Shown in pieces: positions 2 through 32,587 of a stretch of 64,000 bases of DNA (its first letter is position 1; each line of letters begins with the position of its first letter). This DNA comes from Marsupella aquatica (Eukaryota; Plantae; Marchantiophyta). Location: positions 19,544,803-19,608,802 of the forward strand of contig OZ316895.1 of the NCBI GenBank assembly GCA_973895155.1, in the 5' to 3' direction. A model generated the notes under the pieces. That model did no database searches, was not told where the DNA came from, and was given only the letters and a program-made list of their open reading frames with translations. The position numbers and the translations under genes were made by a program.

Positions 2-529
2 CGTAGTCGGATTGTTGCCAGTGTTCACCAGGTGAGGTCTTGGATTGGACCTGCTGTGTTATTGGATGTTGCACGTGTGGGTTCTCGTGCACATCGTCCA
101 CACTTGTGGTGGACTAATTTGATCCCATGTGAGGTGCTGAAGCGCGCATTTGACAGCATTCCACGCTCACCCGCCTTAGTGGTGGATGATATTTTGGATC
201 CAGGGCGTCGTGCACAGGGTGTGACCCAACCTGATAGACCTCCATTGGCAATGGTCAATGCAGTTGGGCGCCCACGTTGTGCATTACCCACTCTTGTAAG
301 CCACTTTGCTTCATATGCATTCAGAGTAGGTGGCCCAGGACTTGTGTGGGACACAACTCTCCAACAGTTAGTGGAACCTACTGCTGATGAGAGAGAGCGT
401 GCTATGGGATTTTTGATTGGCACCACTGCAGTTGCCTCTATGTTAGAGGGTTTGCGGCGCCAGGTTCTTGGTCAAGTAATGGACCTGAATTGTTTGACTT
501 GGATTATCAGCTTGGGAGTAGCTGAATAG
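2..529 (+). pseudogene. C-terminal half of a C5 DNA cytosine methyltransferase (DNMT3/DRM-like) inside the retrotransposon pol frame
   Basis: LLDVARVGSRAHRPHLWWTNL resembles DNMT3 motifs VII/VIII (IDAxxVSAAHRARYFWGNL); EPTADERERAMGF resembles motif IX; RRQVLGQVMD resembles motif X. Same frame as the RT N-terminus at 785, separated only by TAG/TGA stops. Confidence 0.8.
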
Positions 530-784
530 TTATGGATGCGCTCTGCTGGAATTACTGATTGTCCCTTGGTGAGCTTGCGGTCCACTAAGATAGTACTGAC
601 CACAGCTGGGGGTGAGCAGATAGTCCATGGACCTATGGCATGATTGGCCAAGGCTGGACAGATTGTTGAGTAGGAAGGGACTACTCAATCTACTGCTAAA
701 TAGCAATCATTGGCTATCTCTTCTACCCTACAAAGAGATATTAGGGATTTGGTGGAGAGTTGGGAACCATAGCTTGGCCCTAAG

Positions 785-2200
785 TTGACAGGGGAGGAGA
801 GACGTCGCATGCATCAATTTCTGAAGAGTTACTGGAATTGTTTTGCATTTAGCATGAAGGATTTGGGGACATTAAAGGATCCTGGTATTCAGATTGAATT
901 GGCTAGTGATGCGCCAATCTTTTGTAGGCCATACCGTTATAGTGACATGGAAAGAGCTCTGATTCAAAGCAGAACTCAAGATTTGTTGGAGGCTGGATTG
1001 GTGGAGATTCATATGGGGAGTATGCATCTGCCACAGTGATGCCAGCCAAGAAAGATGTGCATGGCAATTACACAGATAGGCGCATGTGTGGTGATTACAG
1101 ACCCATTAATCGCCAGACAAAATCTGATAGATATGCCATGCCCACACCTGAGGAGATCTTTGATGTTGTGGGGCATGCAAAGGTTTTCAGTTCATTGGAT
1201 CTGAGGGCAGGGTACCATTAGCTTCCAATTAGGCATGCTGACAGGTCCAAGACAGCATTCTGGGGGATTGCTTCTTATGGCAAAGATCGTTTGTATCAGT
1301 GGTTATTCTTACCATTTGGGTTGAAGAATGCACCAGTTGAGTTCCAGAGAGTCATGGATCGAATCCTTGCAGGTTTGGAATTTGTCAGATGTTATATTGA
1401 TGATATTTTGGTCTATTCTTCTACAGTGGAAGAACATCAGCAACACTTGCAGATTGTGTTGGAGAGATTGAGAGCACATGGGTTGAAGCTCCATCCTAGC
1501 AAGTGTAAGTTCTTCCAAGACCAGATTGAGTATTTGGGCCACACTATATACCCAGGGGGATTGGGTGTACAGCAGACTAAAGTGGAGGCCATTACCCAGA
1601 TTCCTTGTCCTACTGATGTGAGTAGAGTTCGTGCATTCTTGGGATTGGCGAGCTACTACAGGAGGTATGTTAAAGGATTTAGCCAGCTTGCTAAACCTTT
1701 GACCATACTCACTAAGTTGGATCAGGAATGGATTTGGGGTGATGACCAGGAGCATGCCTTCCAGGAGTTGAAGCAAAGGTTGGCATCATCCCTTATTTTG
1801 AGAAGACCCATTTTTGGCAGACCATTTCAGCTACACACTGATTGGAGTGGAGTAGGACTTGGAGCAGTGTTGACTCAGAAGGATGATGAGAGGAATGAGT
1901 TTGTTGTGGCTTATGCCAGTAGATCAAACAATTTCAGTAGAGGCTAAGTATAGCTCTTATGAGGGAGAGTGTTTGGCGCAGTGTGGGCTGTTGCACACTT
2001 TTGTTGCTACTTGTTTGGTAACCCCTTCACCTTGATCACTGATCATCAGCCTCTTAAATGGTTAATGGAGTCTGATAAGCTTATAGGGAAGCTTGCACAA
2101 TGGGCATTGTTGTTACAGGAGTATGGTTTTCAGGTGGTGCATAGGCCTGGAAAAGTGAACTTGGATGCAGATGGATTAAGCCGCAATCCATGTACCAGTC
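785..2200 (+). pseudogene. Reverse transcriptase + RNase H of Gypsy pol (frameshifts and stops)
   Basis: RMCGDYRPIN, LDLRAGYH, LPFGLKNAP, YIDD, FLGLASYYRRYV; RNase H motifs TDWSG, TDHQPL, DADGLSR. Confidence 0.95.
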
Positions 2201-2559: not shown

Positions 2560-3690
2560 TCACAACGAGTACATTTGGTGTGACATGCACACGAGGAGTT
2601 GGGTCACTTTGGTGTGAAGTGCACTTATAGCTTGCTGCAGACACAGTATTGGTGGCGTGGTATGCACACTCATGCCCAGCAGTTGATAGCTAAGTGTGTG
2701 GTATGTGATAGAGTGAGAGCATCATTTAATGCTCCCACTCCCCAGTTGCACCCGTTACCGATCATGGGTTTGGGATATTGTTGGAGTTTGGATTTTGCTG
2801 GTCCATTACCTCTTACCCAACGTCATAATCGGTATGTTTTGGTCATGGTGGAGCACTTCTCCAAGTGGATTGAGCTAGTGGCATTGCCAGATAAAGCCAG
2901 TGGAGGAGTTGCTGCTACATTTTTGGATCGTGTACTCAGTCATTTTGGAGCACCAGCTGAGGTGTTGACTGATCAGGGAACTGAGTTCCATGGAGAGTTT
3001 GAGAGTTTGTGTGAACAAGCTCTAATTGATCATCGTACTACCTCTCGTGATCATCCTGAGGCAGATGGATTAGCTGAGAGAGTTGTGCAAACTGTGAAGA
3101 GAGGATTGCGTAAGTATAGCTTGCAGGTTGGTCATCTAGGAGATTGGGATCTCCAGCTACCTTGGTTAGCTATGGGCTACCGTTTCAGTTGGCAAGCATC
3201 ACTTGCATCCTTTTCACCTTACTTTTTGCTCTATGGTAGAGAGCCAGATTTGCCAGCAGCTATTCGTCGTGATGCTACACCAGTTGTGAACTTGGATGAT
3301 CATCCTAATGTTTGGGTCAAGGTGTGTTCAGAGAGAGCACGGGTATTTCAAAGAGTGATGCCCATGGCTTTTGACAACCTTGCCATTGCCCAACATTGTG
3401 ATACTTTGAGGTATGTCACTATTCGTGGAGGAGGTTACCGTGCAAGCATTCAACGATTTCATCCTGGTGATTATATTTATTTGCAGCAGACAGCACCCAC
3501 GACACTTGATGTGACCGCAGGCCGAACAATCTTACGTGTGCGTGAAGTGTTGCCTTTTGGTGTCCTGATGTTGGAGGGACGCGATGGTATGGTTTGGAAG
3601 GATCGTGTGCGCAACTGTGTGCCATGTCACCTTCCCAATATTGATGGTACAGTAGATCCAAGCTTGGCACATGTTCGTGCTGGCTTGAAA
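2560..3690 (+). pseudogene. Gypsy integrase (HHCC zinc finger + DDE core)
   Basis: HAHEELGHFG...CVVC; WSLDFAGPL, TDQGTEF, GLAERVVQT; SPYFLLYGREP. Confidence 0.95.
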
Positions 3691-3831
3691 TGTATGTTGT
3701 GTGGATCTGCTCAGGGAGTAGCTACTATGTTGATTTGTGATAAGTGTTCTAGAGGATGGCACATGTCATGTTTGACACCACCATTGCAGGTGATTCCTAG
3801 TGGATCATGGTTGTGTCCTTAGTGTCGGTGA
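3691..3831 (+). pseudogene. PHD finger (C4HC3) fused to the integrase C-terminus
   Basis: CMLC...LICDKC..GWHMSCLTPPL..IPSGSWLCP*C; the last Cys lies just after a TAG (likely CAG>TAG). Confidence 0.9.
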
Positions 3832-4005
3832 CGCCGACTAGTTATCATTTGTGTTCTCTTGGCAGATATGAATTGCAGGTAGGTGATCGATGGGGCTCAC
3901 TTGCACCCGGCCTCCTGATCTTCACACCTAAAAAGGTGTATATCAACCTTGTAGAACTCATGGCTAGCTAGAGTTAGGGGACCTTACTCCCAGCTAGGGG
4001 GCGAT

Positions 4006-4607
4006 TGTGGGTTTTGGACATGTGTGGACATGAGTTCCACTTGTATTCCATTCTCTTGTGTTTGTGGTGTGGCAGTGTGACTATGTTTGGATGTATGTGA
4101 CAAGCGATGTATGTTGTGTAGCGATGTGTATGCGCACGACAGCTATCACACCATTCTAGGTAGTATTAGAGTGTATTGTACTATCTAGATCCGTATGTTT
4201 GGTATGTGTGCTATATGAGCCGATAAGGTTTCATCAGGTTTGTGCAAGAGGGTACTTCTCACTTGTGAGGCATTGAAAGGTCATCTTTCAATGTTGACCC
4301 TTGGAGAGGGGAGCTTGTGTGGTGGCTATGGTGGCTGAGAGCTCTCTCTCTATGTAGCGTGGATTCCTTGAGTGCAAGGTGCGTTGGCTTGACATACATG
4401 TGTGATCGGACCGGACGGGATTGAGTGTGTATTGTTGGCGTCGATCGTTGTGCCGATTGTATTGAGATTATTGTGGGTTTTGGACATGTGTGGACATGAG
4501 TTCCACTTGTATTCCATTCTCTTGTGTTTGTGATGTGGCAGTGTGACTATGTTTGGATGTATGTGACAAGCGATGTATGTTGTGTAGCGATGTATATGTG
4601 CATGACA
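4006..4607 (+). repeat. 3' LTR (602 bp) whose two ends are copies of the same 136-bp sequence (4006-4141 and 4472-4607)
   Basis: Follows the PPT; starts TGTGGG and ends GACA; the two 136-bp units are near-identical. Confidence 0.75.
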
Positions 4608-7221
4608 CCTTGACTATTGGTTTGGTAATAGCCCAAACCCAGGCAGACCATCATCCACCTCAACACCGCTCAGCTTCCCATCTGGAATGTCGGGTCCTAT
4701 GGCACCTCCCCCAGCAACACCGGTGGCCAGTGCAATGCGTAGACCCCATCCTGGGCACCCTCAAGCCACTCCCCACCACCAGCCACACCACCCGCTCTGG
4801 TAGGATCCATGGTGAACGCGATCAATCTAAGCTCGGAGGATGAGGAAGTCCCCCCACCTCTTGTCCGGAAACCGCCAGGGACTCATCAACCCAGGATGGG
4901 TAACGCATTGTCATCCTAACAAGCCCAAACCCGGGAGGTGGCCCCGGTAGACAACACGATGACAGTTGCAGCCCCGACACCAATTCTAACGGTGGTAGCA
5001 CTACCACCGCCAGATAGAGAAGATGGGGAGATGTCCCCCTCCAGGACTCACCCCGAGAAAGAATCTCGGAGTAGGAAGAGGAAGGAGCCGGCTTCAGTAT
5101 CTGGCTTACCCGTGGCCATCGTCGTATTGGCCAAATTGACTATGCATTGCATGGGGGAGAATTCCACAAAAACATTCTTCACCCGAAGCATGCATGTTAC
5201 TTGAAGACCCAAGGGTTTGAACACCTCACCGCACTCCCTTGGAACACTTGCAGGTACTACGGGCAAGATATGATGGAGTTTATCTAGAATTTTGATGAGG
5301 CCCGCCAACAAACCCGTGCACACGGATGGGTAATGTCCTTGACCGAGGGGCGGCTGAAGCTCATCTTTGGTCTACCCAAAGGACATAATCGGGTGGAATC
5401 GCAGACACCAGGGGGCAAGGGAGAAAAGTACCAATCTTCCAACTTCCCGGCCCAGGGTTCGATGGACAACGGCTTCCTGATGAGGACATGCCTCATCCCA
5501 GAGATAGCGGAGTGGCTGGAGTTTCAGAGGTATGCTCTCCACATGATGGAGCCGCAGGGCGAGATATCCGCCGCCCAAGTGATCTAGGTCGAGAACTACC
5601 GGCCTAGGAAGTGGGCTTCTTTCTTCGTCAAGAAGTTCCATGAAGAGATGGAACGACGAAGGAAGACCTTGTACCTCGGGGGAAGGCGTACCTCGCAAGC
5701 CACATCGAGATCACATAGAGTGGTACGCCCGTTTTGATTGACCAACCCTTCCGAGGTGCAACAAGCCCAAACTCACCGCCAGGTGGGTCTTCTTAGCTCA
5801 GGAGAGGCGGCCACAACCCAAAGCCTCAAGTCCAGTGCCTGTGGAGTCCACCCTGACCCCACCCCCAACTTTTGGGGCACCTTCTTCTGTGCCAGACTTG
5901 GCAGTCATTGCAACCTTGGATGCCCAAAACCAAGCCCATGCAATCACAGCCGATCGGGTTGAAGTTGGCCCCAAACCAGAGGCCGTGATCCTAGAGGAAA
6001 CCTTGGTACCCTCCACACCTGTACAAGCGGGTCACCTTTTCCCTTTTGAAGAACCCTCTCCCTCTACCCTTACCACCCCAAGGCTGGACGTAAAAACTCC
6101 GGCCTCTGCCCGAGTCGAGGTCTGTCCCTACCCTAACTCAAGTGGGCACAGCCTGGTAAACCCAAAAATCTTTGCACTAGGCACATATTTGAATGGGTTA
6201 TTGGGCGACTTCTCCCAACAAGTTGGTCGAGATATGGGGGAGTTCATGGTCCGCAAGGTGGCTTACTTCTTCAACCAAGAGCTGGTGGCAGCAATGAAGG
6301 TAGGGGCATGCTCAGGCTGAAGCCGCGCAAAGATTGAGCAGTATCAAGTTGAGGCGACCCAACTATTAGATGAAGCCTCAAACCAAGAAACCGAGCTGCA
6401 ACTCCTCCAACCTCAGCTTGCAACCGCTCTGACCCAGGTCACCGATGCTAAAGCCAAGTTAGCCTTGGCCGTACAAGCCCGAGCCAAAAAGGACGCTCAG
6501 ATCTCACGGCTTTGGACCCAGATTGACAACTTGAAGGGGCAAGCCGTCATCTGGCAGAAGGACGTGGAGGAGGCCGACACTCGGGCCCAGAGGGATGCAA
6601 ACAAGGTGGACGCCTTGAAAGCGAAAGAGGCACGGCTTCTACAAGAAACCACTAAGCAAGACCAACTCATGGCGCAGCTGACGAGCGACGCCCAGTAGTT
6701 GGAAGAGACGTGCCAGGAGGCCGCAAAGGAGACGGACACGGTGAAGCAAGAGAATGAATCTCTCCTGGACCAAGTCAAGATACTCAAGCAGGATGCCGAC
6801 CGGTGAGGAGACAATGGGACGGCTGCTCCAAGTCCAGCTCGGGCGGGTCTGGCAAATGTGCCAGACATTAGCGGCACGACAAGTTTAGAATAGAATAGGT
6901 TTAGCCAGGAAGGTCAGACACTGAGGACATGCGCTGAAACTAGTTAGCGGCGCTGTCCTATCTAACCAACCTTCTTTTAGCATAGAATCTAAGTAGAATA
7001 AGACACGCCATTTTATGGCCTGACAGTTAGCAGAATTTAGGGTAGACTACTTTCGAGCACATGGCCGTTCCAGGCCGTGTCTCTTAGTTAGTATTTAGTG
7101 CACCCCCCGATAGAGGCAAGGGGGAGATTTTAGGTTCAGAACCGGGTATCCACAAGATGTGCGGGGAGTTTCGGCCTTAGTGAATAAAAGAGCACCAAGG
7201 AGTGAGGGTATGACTAATCTC
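4608..7221 (+). mobile_element. Fragment of an ORF-containing LTR-like family (broken TE accessory ORF with a coiled-coil C-terminus)
   Basis: About 6190-7221 aligns by eye with 33440-34460 (RKVAYFFNQELVAA / RKVACFFNQELVAA; LTSDAQ); the LIFGLPKG and WASFF motifs match the ORF at 58712-59212. Confidence 0.7.
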
Positions 7222-10200
7222 GTGGAACTGATGACACTATTTGCGGATGTCTTCAAATGAGTAAAACTGCATACATCATCTTCACAAGTACGATTACAGT
7301 GGCCTACAAGACTCATCTTGAACCATTTGCACTTGAATACCACTTCCTCCAAAGTAGTATGTGCATGGTACTTCACTGTTAGGATCTCCACAATCTTCCC
7401 ATAATGGGCCACGGTGGAGCGAATGAGATTCATGTCTAACATGCTACTCTGGGAATCTTGGGTGAACCAACCCATCACCCCACAATCCTGTGTAGCTGCC
7501 CTCATCTCATCAAGTCGTTCCACACAAAAATGTCTCCCTTTGACCACATGGCAGTCGGAGTTGTGACTATAAGTAGTGGACCATGAACCAAGGTACGAAG
7601 TTTATCTGTCACGTTTGGGTAGTGTAATACACTCTCCCTTGTACCCACCAGGGCATCCACTTCTAACAACTTCTCCTTCATGTATGGGTGAAACTTGGGA
7701 AATAACCATGGGCGTCGACTGTTTTGCTTCTCCTCCTCATAAAATGTTGTCCACTCGACAACCTCGGGTGAGTTATACAACATAAATGTTGTGAGCTGTA
7801 AACGCTCAACTGAGCCTATGAGACGCTCTCCAGATGCCTCAGTGAGTTTATCATCCTCGTAGTTAGCCTCTCGTGCCGCCTCATCTATCCATCCCCTAGG
7901 AGCACTAGGATCTAGTGTGGCAACTATGTTTGTACAGTAAAACATACTCTCTGCTCCAAGATGACACTCTGCAATGCTACCTTCCACCCTAGCGCGATTA
8001 AAGACATATGACTTCATCACCCCCATATAACGCTCTACCCAATACATCCATCGACAATGTACTGGGCCTGCAATTGCAACCTCGCGCACTAAATGTATGA
8101 GGAAATGAACCTGACCATCAAAGAATGAGGGAGGGAGTGCCTTCTCCAACTTGCAGACAACCTCTACTCCAAATATCTCCATAGCAGCAATGTCATCCTC
8201 CTGTACCTCCTTTTGACATACCCATCCTAAGAGCTTACCCAATGACCAAAGGGCATCACGAAGTTCCTCACTACCCAATCCAATAATAGCAACTGGAAGA
8301 ACATGTTCAAGCAACCGATGATAATCATGTGTCTTCAAGAAAGATGGCCATTTTGGAGAATCCTCCCCCCCCAAATGCCTTCCAAAGATTGGTACCATAA
8401 CCTATGGGAAACCTCATCGACCCAATACGTCTGCAAAACTCAATGCGCTCTGCTAGGGGGAGCAGCAGGGGGGTCCAAAGATGGCCAAAAACCCAAAAGA
8501 CCATGCATTCCCATCTCCTCACAACTTTCTCTCCAATTGTTATTTTTCTCCCCATATAGATGGCAAATCAATGATTTCCCCACATTCCCCTCAATGTGCA
8601 TAGGGTCTAACAAGTGATTAATGGGCATATCTGACCAATATGGCAATTGTGACAATGCAGACAAACGGGTCATGCCACATCTGAATAATGGTAATGGATC
8701 ACTCGGATCGTGAACTCTCCCCCATACCTCTCTCCAATATGCTGGATCCTTCCGTTGAGGTTGAGGACAAATATCAGGTTGGCCCTCATCAGTATCATAA
8801 AGGAATGGATCACTCCTCCAAGGATGGTCTGGTGAGGTATGACATGCGTGACAGTAAATAGGAAACAGGTTTACTGGTACCAGTAAAAATTTATTGTTAC
8901 CAGAAAAATGACAATGTAAAAATATTTCCTAAAAAATCACATTTCTCAAAAAAAAAATTGTCGACAACTTTTTTTGGCTAGCATTACCAGCGTCGGGCGC
9001 TAGCAAAAAAAAAATGGCAAAAAAAAAAAAACTTTTTTTTTTCAAAAACAAAAATTCCAAAAACAAATTCCAAAAAATTCAAAAAAAATTACCACTCATT
9101 TTCCTGTTACCAGTTTCTGTTTCCTGTTACTGTTTGTTGTTTCCTATCGTTTGTAAATACTTCGTCTGGTGGAAGATATTTAGTATGACCAATGTAAACA
9201 ATTTTTTGCGGAGTACTTGACTTGGGCCTGGCCACCCCCTCCAAATCGGGTCCACATGTAGAGCAAGCTCGATAGCCTGATGTTTGCAATACAAAAACAT
9301 ATCCAAACCCTGCCCAGTGCATAGAAAACACATTCATAAAATAAAGTTCATCAAGGCAAAAATCTACATAATTGCAATTAAATGCAAGGTTTAGGTACTA
9401 GAGGAAATAAGGGTTTACCATACCTGGTAAATCATGCATGGTCCACATAAGGATGGCCTTTAGAGTAAATGCGCGGGATAAACCTCCTGTGTTGTGATGT
9501 CCATCATAACAATCCACTCCTCTCCATAGTTGTATCAACTCATCAATCAATGGCTGCAAGTACACATCAATCTTTTTAACCTGCTTAGGACCCGAAATAA
9601 TCATGGAGAGTAGTAGGTGACCTTTCTTCATGGCCATCCAAGGAGGGATGTTGTAGTTTGTCAACACTACTGGCCACACCGAATATGGTTTGGCTTTTCC
9701 TGCCAATGCAAAAGGGCTGATACTGTCTGCCGCCAAGCCTAGTCGAACATGTCGTGGGTCAATTTTGAACTCTCCCCATCTATCCTCTACAAATCAATTG
9801 GCAGGAGAGTCAACCATCATTCGCATGGCACTAGAGGGTACAGCCATATCAGAACAATTTTGTGAGTGCCATACCATCATCTCAGCCAACTCTGCACATC
9901 GGAATTGATGTTGCAATCGAGGGATAAGAGGAAAGTACCTCATAACCTTTTGCGGTACCTTCCCCGTCAACATGTCATCACGTTAACGTGGCTTCTGACA
10001 TTTAGGACATGTAGTGGCATTTTCATGCTCACCCCTAAAAAGAATGCAAGATCATCCACACATGCATGTATCACCTCATACTTCAGGCCAATGGACCTTA
10101 ACACCTGTTTAGCCTCTTTCCAAGAGGCTTGCATTGCGTTGCCTACTGGCAAAATATGATCATGCAAGGTACGGAAAACATCATCCAAAAGTAGATTGTT

Positions 10201-10593
10201 TGCCCCATGTCTTTGCTGCAAGTTGAGCAACAACATTATTGATGAGAGCCGAGATAACCTACTCCCCTCGAATATGCGAGTACGGGCATGACGTTGCGCC
10301 TCCTCCCATTCCTTGTCTTGGGACCCCCTAGAAGGATGTGGATGACTAGTCCTTTCATGGGTTGAACCAATGTCCTCCAAACCAATGTCATCATGATCAT
10401 CATAGAATTGGTCCATGAGCTCATCCATGGCCCTCTCCTCATCAAGATGGTCTTGGATAGGATCATCACCATCATGTCGTACCCCATCCTCTTGCCTTTG
10501 CGGTTCATGCCCACGGTTGGCCACCATGGCCTCAACAAGGTGTTGTCGCATAGCTCGTGATATTACCCCAATATCAGGCGTTACATATTTATT
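7222..10593 (-). pseudogene. CACTA TnpD/Tnp2 transposase, copy A (Transposase_21, DUF4218- and DUF4216-like regions); frameshifted, MITE-interrupted, 3' truncated
   Basis: LSSIMLLL..., EVIHAC, ADSISPF, YSVWPV...NIPPW, IDVYLQPLIDEL, HDLPG, DPMHIEGNV, LKTHDYH, PPSFFDGQVH, WMYWVER, VFKCKWF; intron 9310-9423 (GT-AG). Confidence 0.93.
8834..9163. mobile_element. MITE (about 330 bp) inserted in TnpD copy A
   Basis: Flanking direct repeat GTCTGGT(G) at 8827 and 9164; imperfect long TIRs (GAGGTATGACA..ACAGTAAATAGGAAACAG / reverse complement GAAGTATTTACA..ACAGTAACAGGAAACAG); removing it restores KYLPPDHPWRSD. Confidence 0.85.
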
Positions 10594-10714
10594 CTATCAT
10601 ACAACATCAATTAATTAATCTCATCAACACATGCACTGCTGAACAACATCATTCTCATGTAAACATGTAAAATAAACTGACATATATATACATGTATGTA
10701 AGTCCAAGAAACTA

Positions 10715-12039
10715 TCATGGACGACAACGCAAGGACAATTTTGGTGCATCCCACTCATACTCACACAATAACTCCTCACCAACTCTAATGGTCCTAACAG
10801 CTACTGTCATGATATGGTCGTCCATATGTTTCACAAAATATGGATGTCTAGGTGGACCAAACATTTGAATCCACTCTACATTAGCCTCCAAACCTCTATC
10901 TCTACCTGTGGTACTATTGATGTACCCTGCTAAATTACCGTTCCGAATAGGGTCACCATCAATCATTCGGCAATGCCACGGCCTAGTGAAGACCTCATCC
11001 GGATCTGAGTCCATCCTCAATGCATACACCCCCCAACTTGGGTGTTGACGCAACAAAATATTCCAACTCTTGGAGTTATGTACAGCCCCAATGTAAGGAA
11101 AGAGGTGCTGAGCTCCATCATAACCACGTCTCCATGGTTTTGGAGGGACCACAATATCCTCCAAAGCAAAAGACCATATCCTATATCAGGACCAATAGAG
11201 GATGCCTTCACTGTCCAAGGGCGACCCCATATCTGAACTGGTTCATCTGTAGGAATAAAATCTGGAAATTTGAAGAGACTTGGAGAAAAGTCCTTCAAAA
11301 CTTTGGCAGCCCTACTAGTGAGATAGGATAGTCCAAACTTGCCCTCAACGCAAATATAATCTACGTTGCCGGCTGGTCGATCACTAGTACCTAACACCTC
11401 CTCTTGGCTGTCCACCTGGTCTAGTGGTCCATACTGCCGTCTATGTCTACGAGATCGTGGTTGTGTACGTAGGACCCTAGTAGTCACAACCTCGGGCCGA
11501 GAGACCAGTTCCCCCTCTACATGCTCATGTGTGGGCATGGGAGTGGGGATAGGAGCGGGTGGGCTAAGAGGCATCTGGGCAGGAGGAACTGCAAGCAACT
11601 CCCTGGCCTTTGCTAGAAACCCTTCCAACCACACAGCTTCAGGAACCAAAGGAGGTGGGGGCCTATGAGGCACCTATTTCAACACACGTACAATGGTTTT
11701 ACACAAATCAATAAATTAAGTAGTGGGATGTAAATGCAAGATAATTAAGCAATACCCTAAATTGGAATGCATATATGGAATGAATAGGGGACATAAACAT
11801 ATCTGTACCTGGCTAGGCAAATACCCTAGCATATCACCCTCGTGGCGGCCATAGTTCTCGATGTGCTCACAAGTCTCCCACGCATGTCAAACCACAAGTC
11901 CCTTACATCTCACACACCAGCAAGGTATGGGTCCTAGTGGAGCACGAGGATGATTTGGAGGAAGGGGTGGAGGAACCTCCCCCTTAGACGAGCTCGTGTC
12001 TGAGTCTGAATCTAACGTGGAACTATCAGAAGTAGACAT
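10715..12039 (-). pseudogene. SET-domain protein gene, copy A (exon 1 11809-12039 with a CxCxxC..H motif; exon 2 10715-11673 with SET); one internal stop and one frameshift
   Basis: GYGL(F)ALEDI, YIG, GNLAGYINST, ANVEW, VAVRTIRVGEELLCEY; GT-AG intron 11674-11808; 1-nt loss near 11168. Confidence 0.85.
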
Positions 12040-12354
12040 CTGCATGCATGAAGTACACTCATTCATGTAAGCTGCATAAAAGAAGACAAGTGTTGGAGTA
12101 TCAAAATAGAATTAATTAATACATGAGATACAAAAGTCCTATTGTACCTCAATGATACCCGCACTTTGCCAGCCTATTGTGTTGTATTTTCTACACACAA
12201 GGTGTGGGACATCCAAAATCTCTGCATATATGGGTGAGCATTTTGCTAATGAGCATACATAATCTATAAGTGCGAAAGAGTGTAGGAAGAACACACCACA
12301 TATAAAAAATGCCAACATACAAATTAAGTGTAAATGATGAGGCTCGTGAAGCGG

Positions 12355-13059
12355 GGACATCATACCTCGTGGATGCGCGGTCTCACACTATGTATAGTGC
12401 ATTGTCCAAAACAAAACCTACCTACCCCCTCACAAACATCGAACCACCCCTCCAAACGCAAGGTACTGTGCATCAAATCCAACACAACCATTAGCCTAAT
12501 ATATGGAGGTTGAACCTTATCCTAAGAAAAGGTGTAACCTTATCCTAGTGAAACCCCATACTTAACCCTAAACCCATAAACCCCTCCAAAGAAATGATCC
12601 AAATAGCTTTCACCCAGAAATGGTTAGTACAAAAACTTCTTGTAGTATTTTGTCTATCATATATCATAGTATTGAGTTCCCATCACCACAACCATCCCTA
12701 AACTTGCAAGGAACTTGCAAGAGGACATCATACCTCCTAGATGCGCGGTTTCATGCATAGTGCATTGTCCAAAATTGAAACCTCCCTACCCCCTCAAAGA
12801 AAAGTTAACCACCCCTCCAAAAGCAAGGTACTACACATCAAATCCAAACACCAAGATTAGCCTAATGGAGGGGTTTAATATTATCCTAATAAAAGGTATA
12901 ATGTTATACTAATAAAACCTCTACGTACATCCATAATCTCCTATAAAGAAATGAAACAAAAGGCTTTCACCCAAAAATGGTTCATACAAAAACTTCTTGT
13001 AGTATTTTCTTGATCCTATATTACATATCATAGTATTGAGTTCCCATCACCACAACCAT
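12355..13059. repeat. Diverged tandem duplication (about 368-bp unit) in the divergent-promoter region of CACTA 1 (also at +8433)
   Basis: GGACATCATACCTC...GAGTTCCCATCACCACAACCAT present twice (starts 12355 and 12723). Confidence 0.8.
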
Positions 13060-13688
13060 GGTCCCTAAAACACCAAGACTCTATACACAATTGCATCATT
13101 AATTAGAGCCCAATATATTAAGCATGCAAGACCATGGCTTATCAAAAAAATTACATAGTCCGGTACAAACCCCAAAATTTTTTCTTTGCAACAAAGAAAC
13201 TTGCAAGAGGTCCCTCTACATGCATGACACGTTCACTGTCCCGTTCACATATGTAGAGCCCTACAAAACGCCAATTCAAATATGAAAGCAAATAATAACT
13301 CCAACCATGTGCCCTTACCCCATACAAAACCTAAATATCCTAAATTATACTCTAAACCCTCCAATCCCATACCCAACCCAAATTCAAAATATTATATTGG
13401 ACCCCCTTTGGGAAAGCCAAGAGGTATCTGATATAACTTCATGAGGGGTCCGATGCAATAGGAAACGGACCACACTTGGTAAATACATGGCCACAAGAAA
13501 AGGAGGAGGGGTCCGAAGCAGATAGTTTCGGAAAGTCCGATTGTGTGTCCAATACCTATGGTTTTGCAAAGTCCGAAACAAAAAGAATCGGAAGCAGCAG
13601 GTTTCGTTTCGGAAAAAAGAACCGATGCAGATGCGAAGACCCGCGCGTCGGGCCCCATTTTGCACTTGGTGTTTTTCAAAAATTTTGA

Positions 13689-15654
13689 AGTTGGATCAAG
13701 GAGGAGAGCTTGAAGGAGGAGGAGAGATGGAGGGGGCGGGGCATCAGGTGGTGGGGGAGACCAAGGGGGATCAGGTGGTGGGGGAGAGCAAGGGGGACCG
13801 CCCTAGCCATACAATGAGGTTATGAAGGACATTTTTGTGGCCAAGGCAGGGCTGAGTGTGGAAGACGCGGAGAGAGTAGTCCCACTCCCCCAAACGCTGA
13901 TTGATGCCTCTCGGCGTGAGGCAGAGAAGACTGTTGCTGCAAGCATTGCAAGTGAGAAGTAGGCAAAGAAGAGGAAGAAAGAGGCAAAGAGAGGCAAAGA
14001 GAGGCAAGGGGGATGCTGAGGAGACACTGTCTCCAAGAAAACGAGAGAAAAAGCTTTGAAAAGAAGCTAGGGTAATTGAGAAGGTGCGATTGGAGGAGCA
14101 AAGGCGAAAGGAGGCAGAGAGAGCTCTCAGGCCTGAGCTAGCTCGCAATTTGGGTGGTGGCCCATTACCTAAGAGCTACCATCTATTCCAAAGCCAATTC
14201 AAGCAGGTGCTGAGGGCCAATTTGGGGCCACTGGATTACTGGGGCAAGGAGGAAGAGAGATTGAGAATCAGAGAGCAGGTGAAGGAACGGTTCAGGAACG
14301 GGGCCTACATTGATGACAGGTTCCTAAACAAACAAATTTCAGCATCACTCTCAGACATGGGCAATCATCAACGAGAGAAATTCAGAAAGTACTTTGGAGA
14401 TATGGCAGTGGATGCAGAGGTGATCAAGGAGGAGGGTTGTCCAGACGATGTTTCCCCCAATGAGTGGGCGGCTTGGCTTGAGGAGAAACTCTCAGTCCGA
14501 GCTTGGCTGAAAAGAAGACATTGGGACAACAAAATTAGGCTGGCAGAGGAGAAGCAAAAGGCTGGGGAGAATGTTGATATCCTCCCCCTTCAACAGAACC
14601 TGCAACAATGGGCAGTTCAGGCAGAAAGACTCCCCAAACCACCAAGGCACATCATAGCAGCATTGGAGAGAGTGCAGGGGAGGCCAACCATCACTCACCG
14701 GATGGGGCAAGGCAACTCCAATTGATTGAAGGCTGAGTTTGTAAGTGCCCTCCCTCTCCTCCCACCTCAACTCCCTGATCACCTGACTCCTCGCACGAAG
14801 AATGAGTTGTTTGTGCCTTATGTTTTTTGTTTAAACCCTTTGCAAAACGTGTTTTTGCTCTCGGGCCTGTTCTTTCCGATACTCATCCAATAGGTTTTGC
14901 ATCGGAAGCAGCATCGGACACCGTGTTATGCCATTTTTCCTGTTACACATCCGATAGACGTCCGATGTAGGCTGTATCGGACTTTGCATCGGACCCCTCG
15001 GCAAAACATTTAAATTTTTGAATGAACGTACTTAACATTAATTTTTTACTAGGGTAGAGTATAAGTTAGGGTAAACTATGGTTTTAGGTTACATCAGGGC
15101 TATGTAGGGTGGCTTGGTTTAGGGTAGGGCACGCTAATACTAGATTTGATATTAACCTGGCCTCTATGGTTTGGATCTTTAAATTTCAGGAGCGGGAGTA
15201 TGGTCGCCCTATTGCGCCGTTGGAGAGGAATTTGGCAAAGACGGATGGAACCCGCGCTCTAAAGCGCCACCTTGAGGATGAGTTGGGAGAGGTAAGTGTT
15301 CACCCTAGGGTGACATAATGTTTAAGGTTGTCATGAATTTGTTAGAGTTATGGTCGGGACCATTCATTCTAACCGCTTGCAATTAAACCCTATTGCGCAG
15401 GATGAGGAGGGGTCAGGGTCGGAGGAGTTGGACTCAGATTCTGAGCAGGATGCTGAGGCAGGGTTGGGGAGGGTGCCCACAGTCACCCCTACCCCTCAGG
15501 TCCGAGGTGTTGTTGCCCCATCAGCAGGGAGGGGTGGGTCACATGCTGCTAATGGTGTGGGCTCCCATCGCTCTGGAGCATCACGGGGTGCAGGGTCCAG
15601 GCACTCAAGGTGATGGCATGGGACGAGGCCATCGCGCAGGAGTATCTGGTGCAG
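13689..15654 (+). pseudogene. TnpA/Ptta-like ORF2, copy A, truncated at the duplication junction
   Basis: CPDDVSPNEWAAWL and THRMGQG resemble Transposase_24-type motifs; spliced; identical to copy B. Confidence 0.7.
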
Positions 15655-18600
15655 GTGGAACTGATGACACTATTTGCGGATGTCTTCAAATGAGTAAAAC
15701 TGCATACATCATCTTCACAAGTACGATTACAGTGGCCTACAAGACTCATCTTGAACCATTTGCACTTGAATACCACTTCCTCCAAAGTAGTATGTGCATG
15801 GTACTTCACTGTTAGGATCTCCACAATCTTCCCATAATGGGCCACGGTGGAGCGAATGAGATTCATGTCTAACATGCTACTCTGGGAATCTTGGGTGAAC
15901 CAACCCATCACCCCACAATCCTGTGTAGCTGCCCTCATCTCATCAAGTCGTTCCACACAAAAATGTCTCCCTTTGACCACATGGCAGTCGGAGTTGTGAC
16001 TATAAGTAGTGGACCATGAACCAAGGTACGAAGTTTATCTGTCACGTTTGGGTAGTGTAATACACTCTCCCTTGTACCCACCAGGGCATCCACTTCTAAC
16101 AACTTCTCCTTCATGTATGGGTGAAACTTGGGAAATAACCATGGGCGTCGACTGTTTTGCTTCTCCTCCTCATAAAATGTTGTCCACTCGACAACCTCGG
16201 GTGAGTTATACAACATAAATGTTGTGAGCTGTAAACGCTCAACTGAGCCTATGAGACGCTCTCCAGATGCCTCAGTGAGTTTATCATCCTCGTAGTTAGC
16301 CTCTCGTGCCGCCTCATCTATCCATCCCCTAGGAGCACTAGGATCTAGTGTGGCAACTATGTTTGTACAGTAAAACATACTCTCTGCTCCAAGATGACAC
16401 TCTGCAATGCTACCTTCCACCCTAGCGCGATTAAAGACATATGACTTCATCACCCCCATATAACGCTCTACCCAATACATCCATCGACAATGTACTGGGC
16501 CTGCAATTGCAACCTCGCGCACTAAATGTATGAGGAAATGAACCTGACCATCAAAGAATGAGGGAGGGAGTGCCTTCTCCAACTTGCAGACAACCTCTAC
16601 TCCAAATATCTCCATAGCAGCAATGTCATCCTCCTGTACCTCCTTTTGACATACCCATCCTAAGAGCTTACCCAATGACCAAAGGGCATCACGAAGTTCC
16701 TCACTACCCAATCCAATAATAGCAACTGGAAGAACATGTTCAAGCAACCGATGATAATCATGTGTCTTCAAGAAAGATGGCCATTTTGGAGAATCCTCCC
16801 CCCCCAAATGCCTTCCAAAGATTGGTACCATAACCTATGGGAAACCTCATCGACCCAATACGTCTGCAAAACTCAATGCGCTCTGCTAGGGGGAGCAGCA
16901 GGGGGGTCCAAAGATGGCCAAAAACCCAAAAGACCATGCATTCCCATCTCCTCACAACTTTCTCTCCAATTGTTATTTTTCTCCCCATATAGATGGCAAA
17001 TCAATGATTTCCCCACATTCCCCTCAATGTGCATAGGGTCTAACAAGTGATTAATGGGCATATCTGACCAATATGGCAATTGTGACAATGCAGACAAACG
17101 GGTCATGCCACATCTGAATAATGGTAATGGATCACTCGGATCGTGAACTCTCCCCCATACCTCTCTCCAATATGCTGGATCCTTCCGTTGAGGTTGAGGA
17201 CAAATATCAGGTTGGCCCTCATCAGTATCATAAAGGAATGGATCACTCCTCCAAGGATGGTCTGGTGAGGTATGACATGCGTGACAGTAAATAGGAAACA
17301 GGTTTACTGGTACCAGTAAAAATTTATTGTTACCAGAAAAATGACAATGTAAAAATATTTCCTAAAAAATCACATTTCTCAAAAAAAAAATTGTCGACAA
17401 CTTTTTTTGGCTAGCATTACCAGCGTCGGGCGCTAGCAAAAAAAAAATGGCAAAAAAAAAAAAACTTTTTTTTTTCAAAAACAAAAATTCCAAAAACAAA
17501 TTCCAAAAAATTCAAAAAAAATTACCACTCATTTTCCTGTTACCAGTTTCTGTTTCCTGTTACTGTTTGTTGTTTCCTATCGTTTGTAAATACTTCGTCT
17601 GGTGGAAGATATTTAGTATGACCAATGTAAACAATTTTTTGCGGAGTACTTGACTTGGGCCTGGCCACCCCCTCCAAATCGGGTCCACATGTAGAGCAAG
17701 CTCGATAGCCTGATGTTTGCAATACAAAAACATATCCAAACCCTGCCCAGTGCATAGAAAACACATTCATAAAATAAAGTTCATCAAGGCAAAAATCTAC
17801 ATAATTGCAATTAAATGCAAGGTTTAGGTACTAGAGGAAATAAGGGTTTACCATACCTGGTAAATCATGCATGGTCCACATAAGGATGGCCTTTAGAGTA
17901 AATGCGCGGGATAAACCTCCTGTGTTGTGATGTCCATCATAACAATCCACTCCTCTCCATAGTTGTATCAACTCATCAATCAATGGCTGCAAGTACACAT
18001 CAATCTTTTTAACCTGCTTAGGACCCGAAATAATCATGGAGAGTAGTAGGTGACCTTTCTTCATGGCCATCCAAGGAGGGATGTTGTAGTTTGTCAACAC
18101 TACTGGCCACACCGAATATGGTTTGGCTTTTCCTGCCAATGCAAAAGGGCTGATACCGTCTGCCGCCAAGCCTAGTCGAACATGTCGTGGGTCAATTTTG
18201 AACTCTCCCCATCTATCCTCTACAAATCAATTGGCAGGAGAGTCAACCATCATTCGCATGGCACTAGAGGGTACAGCCATATCAGAACAATTTTGTGAGT
18301 GCCATACCATCATCTCAGCCAACTCTGCACATCGGAATTGATGTTGCAATCGAGGGATAAGAGGAAAGTACCTCATAACCTTTTGCGGTACCTTCCCCGT
18401 CAACATGTCATCACGTTAACGTGGCTTCTGACATTTAGGACATGTAGTGGCATTTTCATGCTCACCCCTAAAAAGAATGCAAGATCATCCACACATGCAT
18501 GTATCACCTCATACTTCAGGCCAATGGACCTTAACACCTGTTTAGCCTCTTTCCAAGAGGCTTGCATTGCGTTGCCTACTGGCAAAATATGATCATGCAA

Positions 18601-19026
18601 GGTACGGAAAACATCATCCAAAAGTAGATTGTTTGCCCCATGTCTTTGCTGCAAGTTGAGCAACAACATTATTGATGAGAGCCGAGATAACCTACTCCCC
18701 TCGAATATGCGAGTACGGGCATGACGTTGCGCCTCCTCCCATTCCTTGTCTTGGGACCCCCTAGAAGGATGTGGATGACTAGTCCTTTCATGGGTTGAAC
18801 CAATGTCCTCCAAACCAATGTCATCATGATCATCATAGAATTGGTCCATGAGCTCATCCATGGCCCTCTCCTCATCAAGATGGTCTTGGATAGGATCATC
18901 ACCATCATGTCGTACCCCATCCTCTTGCCTTTGCGGTTCATGCCCACGGTTGGCCACCATGGCCTCAACAAGGTGTTGTCGCATAGCTCGTGATATTACC
19001 CCAATATCAGGCGTTACATATTTATT
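15655..19026 (-). pseudogene. CACTA TnpD transposase, copy B
   Basis: Duplicate of 7222-10593; retains ADGISPF. Confidence 0.93.
17267..17596. mobile_element. MITE, copy B
   Basis: Duplicate of 8834-9163. Confidence 0.85.
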
Positions 19027-19147
19027 CTATCATACAACATCAATTAATTAATCTCATCAACACATGCACTGCTGAACAACATCATTCTCATGTAAACATG
19101 TAAAATAAACTGACATATATATACATGTATGTAAGTCCAAGAAACTA

Positions 19148-20472
19148 TCATGGACGACAACGCAAGGACAATTTTGGTGCATCCCACTCATACTCACACA
19201 ATAACTCCTCACCAACTCTAATGGTCCTAACAGCTACTGTCATGATATGGTCGTCCATATGTTTCACAAAATATGGATGTCTAGGTGGACCAAACATTTG
19301 AATCCACTCTACATTAGCCTCCAAACCTCTATCTCTACCTGTGGTACTATTGATGTACCCTGCTAAATTACCGTTCCGAATAGGGTCACCATCAATCATT
19401 CGGCAATGCCACGGCCTAGTGAAGACCTCATCCGGATCTGAGTCCATCCTCAATGCATACACCCCCCAACTTGGGTGTTGACGCAACAAAATATTCCAAC
19501 TCTTGGAGTTATGTACAGCCCCAATGTAAGGAAAGAGGTGCTGAGCTCCATCATAACCACGTCTCCATGGTTTTGGAGGGACCACAATATCCTCCAAAGC
19601 AAAAGACCATATCCTATATCAGGACCAATAGAGGATGCCTTCACTGTCCAAGGGCGACCCCATATCTGAACTGGTTCATCTGTAGGAATAAAATCTGGAA
19701 ATTTGAAGAGACTTGGAGAAAAGTCCTTCAAAACTTTGGCAGCCCTACTAGTGAGATAGGATAGTCCAAACTTGCCCTCAACGCAAATATAATCTACGTT
19801 GCCGGCTGGTCGATCACTAGTACCTAACACCTCCTCTTGGCTGTCCACCTGGTCTAGTGGTCCATACTGCCGTCTATGTCTACGAGATCGTGGTTGTGTA
19901 CGTAGGACCCTAGTAGTCACAACCTCGGGCCGAGAGACCAGTTCCCCCTCTACATGCTCATGTGTGGGCATGGGAGTGGGGATAGGAGCGGGTGGGCTAA
20001 GAGGCATCTGGGCAGGAGGAACTGCAAGCAACTCCCTGGCCTTTGCTAGAAACCCTTCCAACCACACAGCTTCAGGAACCAAAGGAGGTGGGGGCCTATG
20101 AGGCACCTATTTCAACACACGTACAATGGTTTTACACAAATCAATAAATTAAGTAGTGGGATGTAAATGCAAGATAATTAAGCAATACCCTAAATTGGAA
20201 TGCATATATGGAATGAATAGGGGACATAAACATATCTGTACCTGGCTAGGCAAATACCCTAGCATATCACCCTCGTGGCGGCCATAGTTCTCGATGTGCT
20301 CACAAGTCTCCCACGCATGTCAAACCACAAGTCCCTTACATCTCACACACCAGCAAGGTATGGGTCCTAGTGGAGCACGAGGATGATTTGGAGGAAGGGG
20401 TGGAGGAACCTCCCCCTTAGACGAGCTCGTGTCTGAGTCTGAATCTAACGTGGAACTATCAGAAGTAGACAT
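19148..20472 (-). pseudogene. SET-domain protein gene, copy B
   Basis: Duplicate of 10715-12039. Confidence 0.85.
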
Positions 20473-32500: not shown

Positions 32501-32502
32501 CC
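26580..32502 (+). mobile_element. CACTA/EnSpm DNA transposon 2 (diverged relative, opposite orientation) carrying a SET gene; TnpD half missing
   Basis: Starts CACTAGTACATTATGAGGCC at 26580; dense TCCGAT/ATCGGA array 26600-27120; ORF2 and SET genes homologous to CACTA 1. Confidence 0.92.
27342..30261 (-). pseudogene. TnpA/Ptta-like ORF2 of CACTA 2 (donor at 29128; exon 28300-28401; last exon from 28176)
   Basis: KSYNLFRSQLGQVLRANFSPLDYWGK, THRMGQGG, RAKKRKGR; same 102-nt middle exon as CACTA 1; frameshifts. Confidence 0.75.
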
Positions 32503-32587
32503 TGTGACACGGGCAACGTGTCACTTGACCGAACCCAGGTCGAAGATTAGGACTTATACGGTCATAAGGACCGTAGCCATAGCGTAG
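31200..32587 (+). CDS. SET-domain protein of CACTA 2 (exon 1 31200-31434, exon 2 from 31550); near-intact; last 27 aa come from the inserted LTR
   Basis: Uninterrupted 345-aa exon-2 ORF: GFGLFALEDI, YIGPIY, DNIAGYINST, PNVEW, VAIRTIRAGEELFCDY; exon 1 has one extra C in the C9 run at 31269-31277. Confidence 0.88.

What the first reader, a model, noticed from the sequence alone, without database searches (positions are those of the whole stretch)
2..1039. Cytosine methyltransferase (DNMT3/DRM-like) domain in frame with RT in a land-plant Gypsy element
Seen: motif VII/VIII-, IX- and X-like segments at 2-529 run in the same frame into the RT N-terminus (785), interrupted only by five stops (527, 641, 671, 701, 770), all TAG or TGA and so derivable from CAG/CGA by C>T. 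Known: retrotransposons carrying DNMTs have been reported in dinoflagellates and a charophyte alga but are not a typical feature of land-plant LTR elements. Inference: the ancestral polyprotein delivered a methyltransferase with RT and IN, which could methylate the new cDNA or the insertion site.
Basis: partly seen in the sequence, partly recalled or inferred. Interest (0 to 1): 0.85.

Follow-up and report, generated by a model that had tools for sequence, protein, structure and literature searches.

The report
Gypsy element with Gag-linked DNMT3 methyltransferase
This is a dead copy of a jumping gene, with close relatives in mosses and liverworts, that carries a gene for a DNA-methylating enzyme just in front of a conserved and likely leaky stop signal, so the enzyme would be made in bulk with the particle's shell protein and would probably mark the element's new DNA copies.

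Summary
Observation confirmed; interpretation needs two corrections. Window 2-526 is the C-terminal half (motifs VIII-X) of a DNMT3-type, not DRM-type, cytosine methyltransferase in a decayed Gypsy element. Relatives from liverworts, peat moss and metagenomes show Gag-protease-DNMT3-RT-RNaseH-integrase-PHD with catalytic motifs, a DNMT3A fold and purifying selection. One of the five stops (701) is not decay. None of 40 in-frame copies (39 loci plus the window) is open between DNMT3 and RT, near-identical public copies keep it, and four divergent subfamilies follow it with the CAR-YYA readthrough signal. The main product is therefore Gag-protease-DNMT3, and RT-integrase is likely made by readthrough. 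The element ends in B-A-B repeats. Relatives read A-coding-B-A-B with TG...CA ends and 4-bp duplications, which fits integrase opening a 2-LTR circle at an internal site. The kind is in print from the alga Klebsormidium (KnitGypsy-Dnmt3). My literature searches found no land-plant description and no mention of the stop. This scan noted the methyltransferase and the permuted ends before on other DNA. Activity, readthrough and host are untested. New variant of a known kind.

The parts
2..526 (+). C-terminal half of a DNMT3-type C5 cytosine methyltransferase (end of motif VII region, motif VIII, target-recognition region, motifs IX and X; motif numbering recalled). The N-terminal half with motifs I, IV and VI is off-window. 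One conserved motif-VIII residue is substituted in this copy.
527..700 (+). C-terminal tail of the Gag-PR-DNMT3 reading frame, with three stops (527, 641, 671) that relatives or near-identical copies mostly lack
   Evidence: Aligns to the end of P0001 (P0001 494-726 to window 2-700)
701..709 (+). Family-wide in-frame stop TAG followed by CAA TCA (fits the CAR-YYA readthrough signal); predicted programmed readthrough site
   Evidence: signal as described in PMC2194720
710..1560 (+). Reverse transcriptase: N-terminus in frame +2 (773-1009), core in frame +1 (1021-1560). Broken by stops at 770 and 1219 and a frameshift near 1010.
   Evidence: Pfam RVT_1 E 3.7e-27
1735..2124 (+). RNase H, broken by frameshifts near 1930-1980
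   Evidence: Pfam RT_RNaseH_2 E 6.6e-19, RT_RNaseH E 9.3e-13
2584..3240 (+). DDE integrase (H2C2 zinc finger and rve core); stop at 2581 just before it
   Evidence: Pfam Integrase_H2C2 E 7.4e-12, rve E 7.2e-14
3691..3819 (+). PHD finger at the C-terminus of integrase
   Evidence: Pfam PHD E 2.9e-09, above the gathering cut-off
3996..4003 (+). Purine-rich tract directly before repeat B1 (predicted plus-strand primer)
   Evidence: Seen in the sequence; same tract before B1 in relatives
4004..4141 (+). Repeat B1, ending in CA
   Evidence: Direct repeat with 4470-4610, 96% identical
4142..4143 (+). Two-base spacer of the internal CA-NN-TG/TA junction (predicted integrase cleavage site)
   Evidence: Exactly two bases in 7 of 7 loci of the main subfamily that hold B next to A, and in the window
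4144..4469 (+). Repeat A2. Its partner A1 is expected at the off-window 5' end; in relatives A carries a TATA-like box and forms the element's left end.
   Evidence: relatives
4470..4607 (+). Repeat B2, ending in CA: right end of the element. Bases 4608-4611 are the predicted right copy of a 4-bp target duplication.
   Evidence: public contigs end their match at the B end with unrelated flanks (loose ends at 4141, agreement 0.39 in X2 and X5)

Best explanation
The window starts inside a decayed copy of a high-copy Gypsy-type retrotransposon whose first reading frame (Gag-protease-DNMT3, seen whole in relatives) ends at a conserved stop, which is likely read through now and then to make RT-RNase H-integrase-PHD, so the methyltransferase would be packaged at Gag-like abundance and would probably methylate the element's own new DNA. 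Shown: the domain, its DNMT3 type, its place in the family, purifying selection, the shared stop and its context, the A-coding-B-A-B ends with TG...CA termini and 4-bp duplications. Inferred steps: (1) readthrough at the stop, about 0.7. (2) Ordinary LTR-type reverse transcription with B+A as the true LTR (purine tract before B1, possible self-priming site after A1), about 0.7. (3) The linear DNA closes to a 2-LTR circle, and integrase opens it at the internal CA-NN-TG site and inserts it, which gives A-coding-B-A-B, about 0.6. (4) The DNMT3 domain writes 5mC on that DNA before or at insertion, about 0.5, while the PHD finger would read host chromatin at the target. This copy is dead: at least six private stops and two or more frameshifts.
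For: DNMT3 type: a stop-free relative (L005:9551-10525, 70% identical to the window piece) matches DNMT3A at E 1e-11, DRM2 at 0.07 and HhaI at 4e-4. The family profile gives 9e-25, 1.5e-12 and 2e-8. Its AlphaFold model (pLDDT 81, pTM 0.84) matches DNMT3A at E 7e-18, TM 0.67. Of 105 proteins with a full domain, 89 have the motif IV PC, 8 have EC, 97 have ENV-like motif VI and 91 motif VIII. dN/dS of the window piece against seven closer loci is about 0.12-0.15, with dS near saturation. Architecture: 80 loci (best 80 of 159 confirmed) repeatedly show GAG-PR-DNMT-RT-RH-IN-PHD. Stop: of 58 sequences with both the DNMT end and the RT start (57 loci and the window), 40 are in one frame and 0 of 40 are open; 53 of 58 have a stop 15-31 codons before the RT start. 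Four subfamilies only 49-74% identical in the DNMT (window, L007, L061, L067) have exact CAR-YYA after it, against 1 of 920 other stops. Linker lengths differ among six subfamilies, but all keep the frame. In near-identical public copies no difference at 701-709 reaches 10%, whereas the stop at 770 is absent from 96-100% of depth in four runs. Many long homologues end 54-165 residues after the DNMT, including Marchantia P0009 and P0012 and Calypogeia P0004. The window frame has no ATG between 704 and the RT N-terminus. Ends: 4 of 5 independent sites with both ends have an exact 4-bp duplication (L011, L046, L056/L058, L066); the fifth (L040) matches 3 of 4. 0 of 14 left ends have a B copy within 500 bases upstream.
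Against: No activity, translation or RNA data. The Klebsormidium relative gave no methylation in yeast (called inconclusive in PMC5890265). The dominant subfamily has CAA CCC ATG after the stop: 41 of 55 listed contexts read CAACCC, one base off the signal and with an ATG two codons on, and 15 of 55 listed stops are TAA. More distant relatives (P0058, P0061, P0067, P0078, P0119, P0173-P0175, P0185, P0211, P0214) hold DNMT and RT in one stop-free protein, so the stop is not universal. Five plant gene models (P0005, P0006, P0011, P0015, P0059) run from DNMT into RT with shortened linkers. The 40 in-frame sequences fall into only 8 clusters at 80% DNA identity, 33 in one. The self-priming match is 8 or more of 10 bases at the expected place in only 8 of 14 loci. 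L046 and L048 share one insertion site but end in B and in B-A-B respectively, so the short form does not show integration of 1-LTR circles. Motifs I, IV and VI of this very copy are off-window.
Confidence: 0.65

Rival explanations
1. The stop is firm, and RT-RH-IN-PHD is made separately, from a spliced RNA, an internal promoter or reinitiation. The DNMT3 is then never fused to RT, though still made with Gag.
For: An ATG lies two codons after the stop in the dominant subfamily. Five plant gene models skip the stop region. The Tca2 gag-pol junction has promoter activity in reporters (PMC2194720 passages). Ogre elements splice out stops between gag-pro and RT (recalled, no call).
Against: Exact CAR-YYA in four divergent subfamilies. 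Frame kept across linkers of six different lengths, which splicing would not need. No ATG before the RT N-terminus in the window subfamily. The gene models join at different points.
Confidence: 0.2
2. The DNMT3 domain is conserved for a role other than methylating the element's own DNA: methylating host chromatin at the target, binding RNA or DNA in the particle, or restraining the element's own copying.
For: No activity for KnitGypsy-Dnmt3 in yeast, and the same paper lists these options. CpG depletion of the window element (observed/expected 0.31 against 0.55 in the rest of the window) is equally explained by host methylation.
Against: Catalytic motifs are kept in most full domains. Retrotransposon DNMT3s of SymbioDIRS methylate CG de novo. 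A position at the end of the Gag frame puts the enzyme where cDNA is made.
Confidence: 0.3
3. The split repeats are copied as in DIRS/PAT elements: the RNA runs from A1 into B2, and template switches on the internal B-A copy rebuild the ends or a circle, with no true LTR and no ligated 2-LTR circle.
For: Same repeat order as SymbioDIRS (A-coding-B-A-B). No tRNA primer site was noted after A1 (judged by eye).
Against: Purine tract exactly before B1 and not before B2. TATA-like box inside A with a complement of the bases after A1 about 30 bases downstream. L066 has extra bases at the A2-B2 joint while the B1-A2 joint is always two bases. DDE integrase and 4-bp duplications.
Confidence: 0.25
4. 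One reading: one continuous DNMT-RT-IN polyprotein in the ancestor of this copy, with all five stops arising by decay.
For: Distant relatives do have open DNMT-RT proteins.
Against: 0 of 40 in-frame sequences are open; the stop at 701 is kept in near-identical copies; the closest protein P0001 ends at the same place.
Confidence: 0.03
5. The methyltransferase segment is a captured host DNMT3/DRM fragment or a separate insertion.
For: No Pfam hit on the window piece alone.
Against: Same position between protease and RT across dozens of loci; intronless; purifying selection. Host plant DNMT3s carry a C-terminal DUF3444 (PMC6453930), which Pfam did not report in the relatives scanned.
Confidence: 0.02

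Closest known systems
KnitGypsy-Dnmt3 of Klebsormidium nitens (de Mendoza et al. 2018, PMC5890265); called 'streptophytes (Gypsy-DNMT3)' in bioRxiv 10.64898/2026.05.21.726589
   Same: Intronless, unpermuted DNMT3 inside a Gypsy element; purifying selection; repeats arranged as in DIRS. K. nitens proteins P0073, P0180 and P0208 are hit by the window piece or the family profile, and P0180 is zinc knuckle-protease-DNMT ending right after the domain.
   Different: Nearest named relatives are liverworts and peat moss (60-70% identity, against 42% for K. nitens). The paper places the DNMT in the Pol ORF and, in the text read, mentions no stop, PHD finger, target duplication or land-plant copies. Here the DNMT is upstream of a conserved stop. 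I could not see the paper's figures.
SymbioDIRS-Dnmt3 (PMC5890265)
   Same: Retrotransposon-borne DNMT3; A-coding-B-A-B repeats; shown there to methylate CG de novo in yeast.
   Different: DIRS elements with a tyrosine recombinase; this element has a DDE integrase, TG...CA ends and 4-bp duplications.
Retroelements with an in-frame stop between frames: MuLV, SIRE1, Tca2; TMV CAR-YYA signal (PMC2194720)
   Same: In-frame stop separating an abundant upstream product from a rarer downstream one; exact CAR-YYA in four subfamilies.
   Different: Here protease and a methyltransferase lie upstream of the stop; readthrough is not measured.
Foamy virus integrase cleaving 2-LTR circle junctions (PMC1180852, abstract only)
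   Same: Precedent for an integrase cutting a palindromic CA...TG site in circular DNA.
   Different: There the site is the LTR-LTR joint; here it would lie inside the LTR, giving a permuted insert.
Troyka LTR retrotransposons (PMC12440569)
   Same: Gypsy-like domain order.
   Different: CG...CG ends, 3-bp duplications, animals only, no methyltransferase mentioned: rejected.

Membership tests
DNMT3-type C5 cytosine methyltransferase | Motifs I, IV (PC), VI (ENV), VIII, IX, X in linear order | tested here: met
   Met in relatives. The window holds only VIII-X; its own I, IV and VI are off-window.
DNMT3-type C5 cytosine methyltransferase | Closer to DNMT3A/B than to DRM, DNMT2 or bacterial enzymes in sequence and fold | tested here: met
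   Pfam PF00145 above cut-off in L005, P0001, P0009
DNMT3-type C5 cytosine methyltransferase | Methylates cytosine in DNA | not testable with these tools
   No assay
DRM methyltransferase | Circularly permuted motif order (VI-X before I-V) | tested here: not met
   DRM2 aligns only through its C-terminal part to the N-terminal part of the relative; motif X is followed by linker and RT, not by motif I
Ty3/Gypsy LTR retrotransposon | Order Gag-PR-RT-RH-IN with DDE integrase | tested here: met
   RT-RH-IN in the window; Gag and PR in relatives
Ty3/Gypsy LTR retrotransposon | TG...CA ends with a 4-6 bp target duplication | tested here: met
   4 of 5 sites with both ends, in relatives; only the right end is in the window
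Ty3/Gypsy LTR retrotransposon | The same LTR at both ends | tested here: not met
   Ends are A (left) and B (right); 0 of 14 left ends have B upstream
Ty3/Gypsy LTR retrotransposon | Placement in a named plant lineage (REXdb) by RT phylogeny | not testable with these tools
   No named reference RTs on hand; PMC6317226 has no occurrence of 'PHD' or 'methyltransferase' in its main text
KnitGypsy-Dnmt3 / streptophyte Gypsy-DNMT3 | Intronless DNMT3 in the coding region of a Gypsy element, under purifying selection | tested here: met
KnitGypsy-Dnmt3 / streptophyte Gypsy-DNMT3 | DIRS-like split repeats | tested here: met
   B-A-B in the window; A-coding-B-A-B in L056/L058 and L066. The paper's figure was not seen, only its legend.
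KnitGypsy-Dnmt3 / streptophyte Gypsy-DNMT3 | DNMT inside the Pol ORF | tested here: not met
   Conserved stop between DNMT and RT. K. nitens P0180 also ends just after its DNMT, so the published wording may be loose.
KnitGypsy-Dnmt3 / streptophyte Gypsy-DNMT3 | One clade with the K. nitens elements | tested here: inconclusive
   Midpoint-rooted FastTree without host DNMT3 outgroup: both lie on the 'DNMT before RT' side but are not sisters; no K. nitens RT in the RT tree
DIRS/PAT retrotransposon | Tyrosine recombinase instead of integrase | tested here: not met
   rve integrase E 7e-14; no recombinase hit in the six window pieces scanned
Troyka | CG...CG ends and 3-bp duplications | tested here: not met
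   TG...CA and 4 bp against PMC12440569
Chromovirus | Chromodomain at the integrase C-terminus | tested here: not met
   PHD finger instead; no chromodomain hit at E<=1

The most novel reading that the evidence does not exclude
An old, high-copy lineage of land-plant retrotransposons packs a de novo cytosine methyltransferase into its particle at capsid stoichiometry by placing it before a leaky stop. It methylates its own circular cDNA, then integrates that circle through an internal palindromic site, so new copies arrive pre-methylated and circularly permuted. Natural stop-free Gag-PR-DNMT3 frames in Marchantia would make transposon self-methylation testable in a genetic model plant, and the elements may contribute to bryophyte methylomes.
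Probability: 0.3. Interest if true: 0.85.

Novelty: new variant of a known kind. Interest (0 to 1): 0.6.

Why it matters
Why a transposon would carry the enzyme that hosts use to silence transposons has been open since 2018, and the known carriers are algae with few genetic tools. This family has many copies in land plants, including stop-free Gag-PR-DNMT3 frames annotated as hypothetical proteins in Marchantia polymorpha (P0009, P0012), where the question can be tested. The conserved stop changes the prediction: the methyltransferase should be as abundant as Gag, not as scarce as RT. The permuted ends would also be missed by LTR finders that look for two like ends, which may explain why the family is absent from the plant classification text I searched. 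Counts of DNMT3 genes in bryophyte genomes may be inflated by these copies.

Tried and rejected
Pfam and PDB searches with the window piece alone gave nothing; relatives were needed. No genome is held for the window, so the 5' half of this copy and the host's own DNMT3 could not be read. The search of 50%-identity representatives never ran. No RNA holder was listed among 21 runs; this says nothing about expression. Troyka was a lead from memory and proved wrong. DRM identity rejected. I first read A-coding-B copies as integrated 1-LTR circles; L046 and L048 share a site with the two forms, so recombination between B copies, or assembly collapse, explains them as well. The trees lack a host DNMT3 outgroup and named RT references, so they do not show a single origin with Klebsormidium or a donor; they leave out unnamed short fragments and all but 12 of the 80 loci, and P0047 is mislabelled there. 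CpG depletion does not discriminate self- from host methylation. The Atlas search gave two unnamed clusters first and a PF00145 cluster third (33% of members): a lead only. Literature searches for a land-plant description or for the stop found only PMC5890265, PMC12344493 and the 2026 preprint as relevant. The library lacks most subscription papers and Repbase. Figures, some supplements of these papers and the preprint's supplements were not seen and may list bryophyte copies.

Full report
Observation. Frame +2 is open from base 2 to 526, has stops at 527, 641, 671, 701 and 770, and continues into the RT N-terminus to 1037. Downstream lie RT, RNase H, integrase and a PHD finger (Pfam E 3.7e-27, 6.6e-19, 7.2e-14, 2.9e-09), with further stops at 1219, 2581 and 3820 and frameshifts near 1010 and 1930-1980. 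The copy is dead. No genome is held, so everything upstream of base 1 is known only from relatives.

The domain is a DNMT3. The 175-aa piece has no Pfam or PDB hit alone. It finds 83 homologues among 1676 candidates, led by an unnamed protein at 82% identity and named proteins of Calypogeia (70%), Marchantia (up to 68%), Riccia, Sphagnum and, at 42%, Klebsormidium; many carry PF00145. It scores 285 bits on a profile made without it, against 7.6 for the best of 200 shuffles. A stop-free full domain from locus L005 matches DNMT3A at 1e-11, HhaI at 4e-4 and DRM2 at 0.07; the family profile ranks them 9e-25, 2e-8 and 1.5e-12. The predicted structure matches DNMT3A at E 7e-18 and TM 0.67. Motif order is linear, so 'DRM-like' falls. 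Of 105 proteins with the whole domain, 89 keep PC and 8 have EC in motif IV, and 97 keep motif VI. dN/dS between the window piece and seven closer loci is about 0.12-0.15, with dS near saturation; RT is about twice as constrained. The motif numbering is recalled, not from a call.

It belongs to the element. A metagenome scan confirmed 159 of 392 candidate stretches and returned the best 80. They repeatedly read Gag-protease-DNMT-RT-RH-IN-PHD. Most sit next to named Sphagnum proteins in the tree, while the window groups with P0001 inside a clade of liverwort and peat-moss elements. Four public runs hold hundreds to thousands of contigs like the window element (12,892 laid in X1), so the subfamily is high-copy. 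The host is likely a non-seed land plant, but I cannot name it.

One stop is by design. Of 58 sequences with both the DNMT end and the RT start, 40 keep one frame and none of the 40 is open; 53 of 58 have a stop 15-31 codons before the RT start. The window's stop at 701 is that stop: P0001 ends there, and near-identical copies show no variant at 701-709 at the 10% level, while 770, 671 and 641 are private. The window, L007, L061 and L067, 49-74% identical in the DNMT, all follow it with CAR-YYA; 1 of 920 other stops does. That hexamer directs readthrough in tobacco mosaic virus (PMC2194720, passages). Dozens of long homologues end 54-165 residues after the DNMT, and Klebsormidium-type ones end directly after it. 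Against this reading: the 40 sequences form only 8 clusters at 80% identity; the commonest context is CAA CCC ATG; 15 of 55 listed stops are TAA; eleven distant proteins fuse DNMT and RT without a stop; and five plant gene models bridge the junction with shortened, differing linkers, which I read as predicted introns without having seen their DNA. Readthrough is my best reading (about 0.7); splicing or an internal start is the main rival. Either way the methyltransferase is part of the Gag-protease product.

The ends are permuted. After the PHD the window has a purine tract, B1 (4004-4141), two bases, A2 (4144-4469) and B2 (4470-4607). Relatives with both ends read A-coding-B-A-B (L056/L058, one site; L066) or A-coding-B (L011, L046, L040), start TG (or a decayed form of it) and end CA. 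Four of these 5 sites have an exact 4-bp duplication, and the fifth matches 3 of 4. No left end (0 of 14) has a B upstream. The B1-A2 joint is CA, two bases, TG or TA in 7 of 7 loci and in the window. The simplest mechanism takes B+A as the true LTR: the purine tract precedes B, and A holds a TATA-like box and, in 8 of 14 loci, an 8-or-more-of-10 complement of the bases that follow A1, a possible self-priming site. Reverse transcription would give BA-coding-BA. Closing that to a circle and opening it at an internal B-A site gives exactly A-coding-B-A-B. Foamy virus integrase cutting circle junctions is a precedent (PMC1180852, abstract). The short form need not come from 1-LTR circles, since L046 and L048 share a site with the two forms. 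All of this is inferred from sequence.

Function. By position, the enzyme would be present in the particle in many copies when cDNA is made. SymbioDIRS DNMT3s methylate CG de novo in yeast, while KnitGypsy-Dnmt3 showed no activity, which the authors call inconclusive. I put self-methylation of new DNA at about 0.5. The PHD finger as a chromatin reader is general knowledge, untested here.

What is known. PMC5890265 (read: parts 1-4 of 7 of the text, term passages, three supplements searched; figures not seen) describes KnitGypsy-Dnmt3 with the DNMT in Pol and DIRS-like repeats, as an acquisition in the K. nitens lineage; 'Marchantia', 'moss', 'fern' and 'PHD' do not occur in its main text. PMC12344493 (passages, one supplement searched) and bioRxiv 10.64898/2026.05.21.726589 (part 1 of 5 and passages) refer to these as streptophyte elements without naming land plants in what I saw. 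PMC6453930 (passages) describes host plant DNMT3s with DUF3444. PMC6317226 (passages) mentions neither PHD nor methyltransferase. PMC12440569 (parts 1-3 of 5) excludes Troyka. Earlier notes of this scan report the methyltransferase (e1-7364918, e1-7304653) and the permuted ends (e1-7364823) on other DNA. I had reached both readings before seeing them (notes for the ends); they are unchecked AI notes, not support. The lines shown from them place the DNMT in the replication protein and do not mention the conserved stop.

Verdict. A real, well-supported land-plant variant of the algal Gypsy-DNMT3 elements, with two features I did not find in print: a conserved, likely leaky stop that ties the DNMT3 to Gag, and ends that fit integration of a permuted circle. 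New variant of a known kind; interest 0.6.

Noticed in passing
window 7222-15658 and 15655-24091: Head-to-tail duplication of 8437 bases at 99.988% identity: very recent, or an assembly artefact. The unit holds a DUF4218 frame (7502-8401, minus strand, E 1e-30), a domain I recall from CACTA transposons.
   Followed up: partly
window 31550-32587 (+): 345-aa frame with a SET domain (E 1.3e-07). Decayed paralogues lie at 10719-11349 and 19152-19782 (74% DNA identity, opposite strand) inside the duplicated unit, so a DNA transposon family here may carry a histone methyltransferase-like domain.
   Followed up: partly
window 39954-40964 (-): Remnant of a PIF/Harbinger-type transposase (Plant_tran E 1.6e-44, DDE_Tnp_4 E 6.7e-07).
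   Followed up: no
window 51072-51446 (-) and 47833-48195 (-): Partial RRM (E 5.7e-07) and an Arg/Ser-rich frame further on: possibly exons of a host RNA-binding or splicing-factor gene, which could help name the host.
   Followed up: no
window 6191-7222, 33439-34461, 35017-36022, 58331-59370: Dispersed repeat family (67-75% identity) with coiled-coil-like frames and only weak Pfam hits below cut-off; it flanks the element's right end.
   Followed up: no
proteins P0060, P0063, P0080, P0179-P0207 (part), P0212: A second architecture with the DNMT between RNase H and integrase (RT-RH-DNMT-IN-PHD): 28 such proteins form the other side of the DNMT tree, and one similar protein is named from the green alga Monoraphidium. 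Some have EC in place of PC in motif IV. The domain has moved within related elements.
   Followed up: partly
protein P0210: Carries PF00145 together with PF05869 in the precomputed domains; may be a dual-methyltransferase element like those of the 2026 preprint.
   Followed up: no
L046:13482 and L048:8171: Same right flank (95-97% identity), but one copy ends in B and the other in B-A-B.
   Followed up: yes
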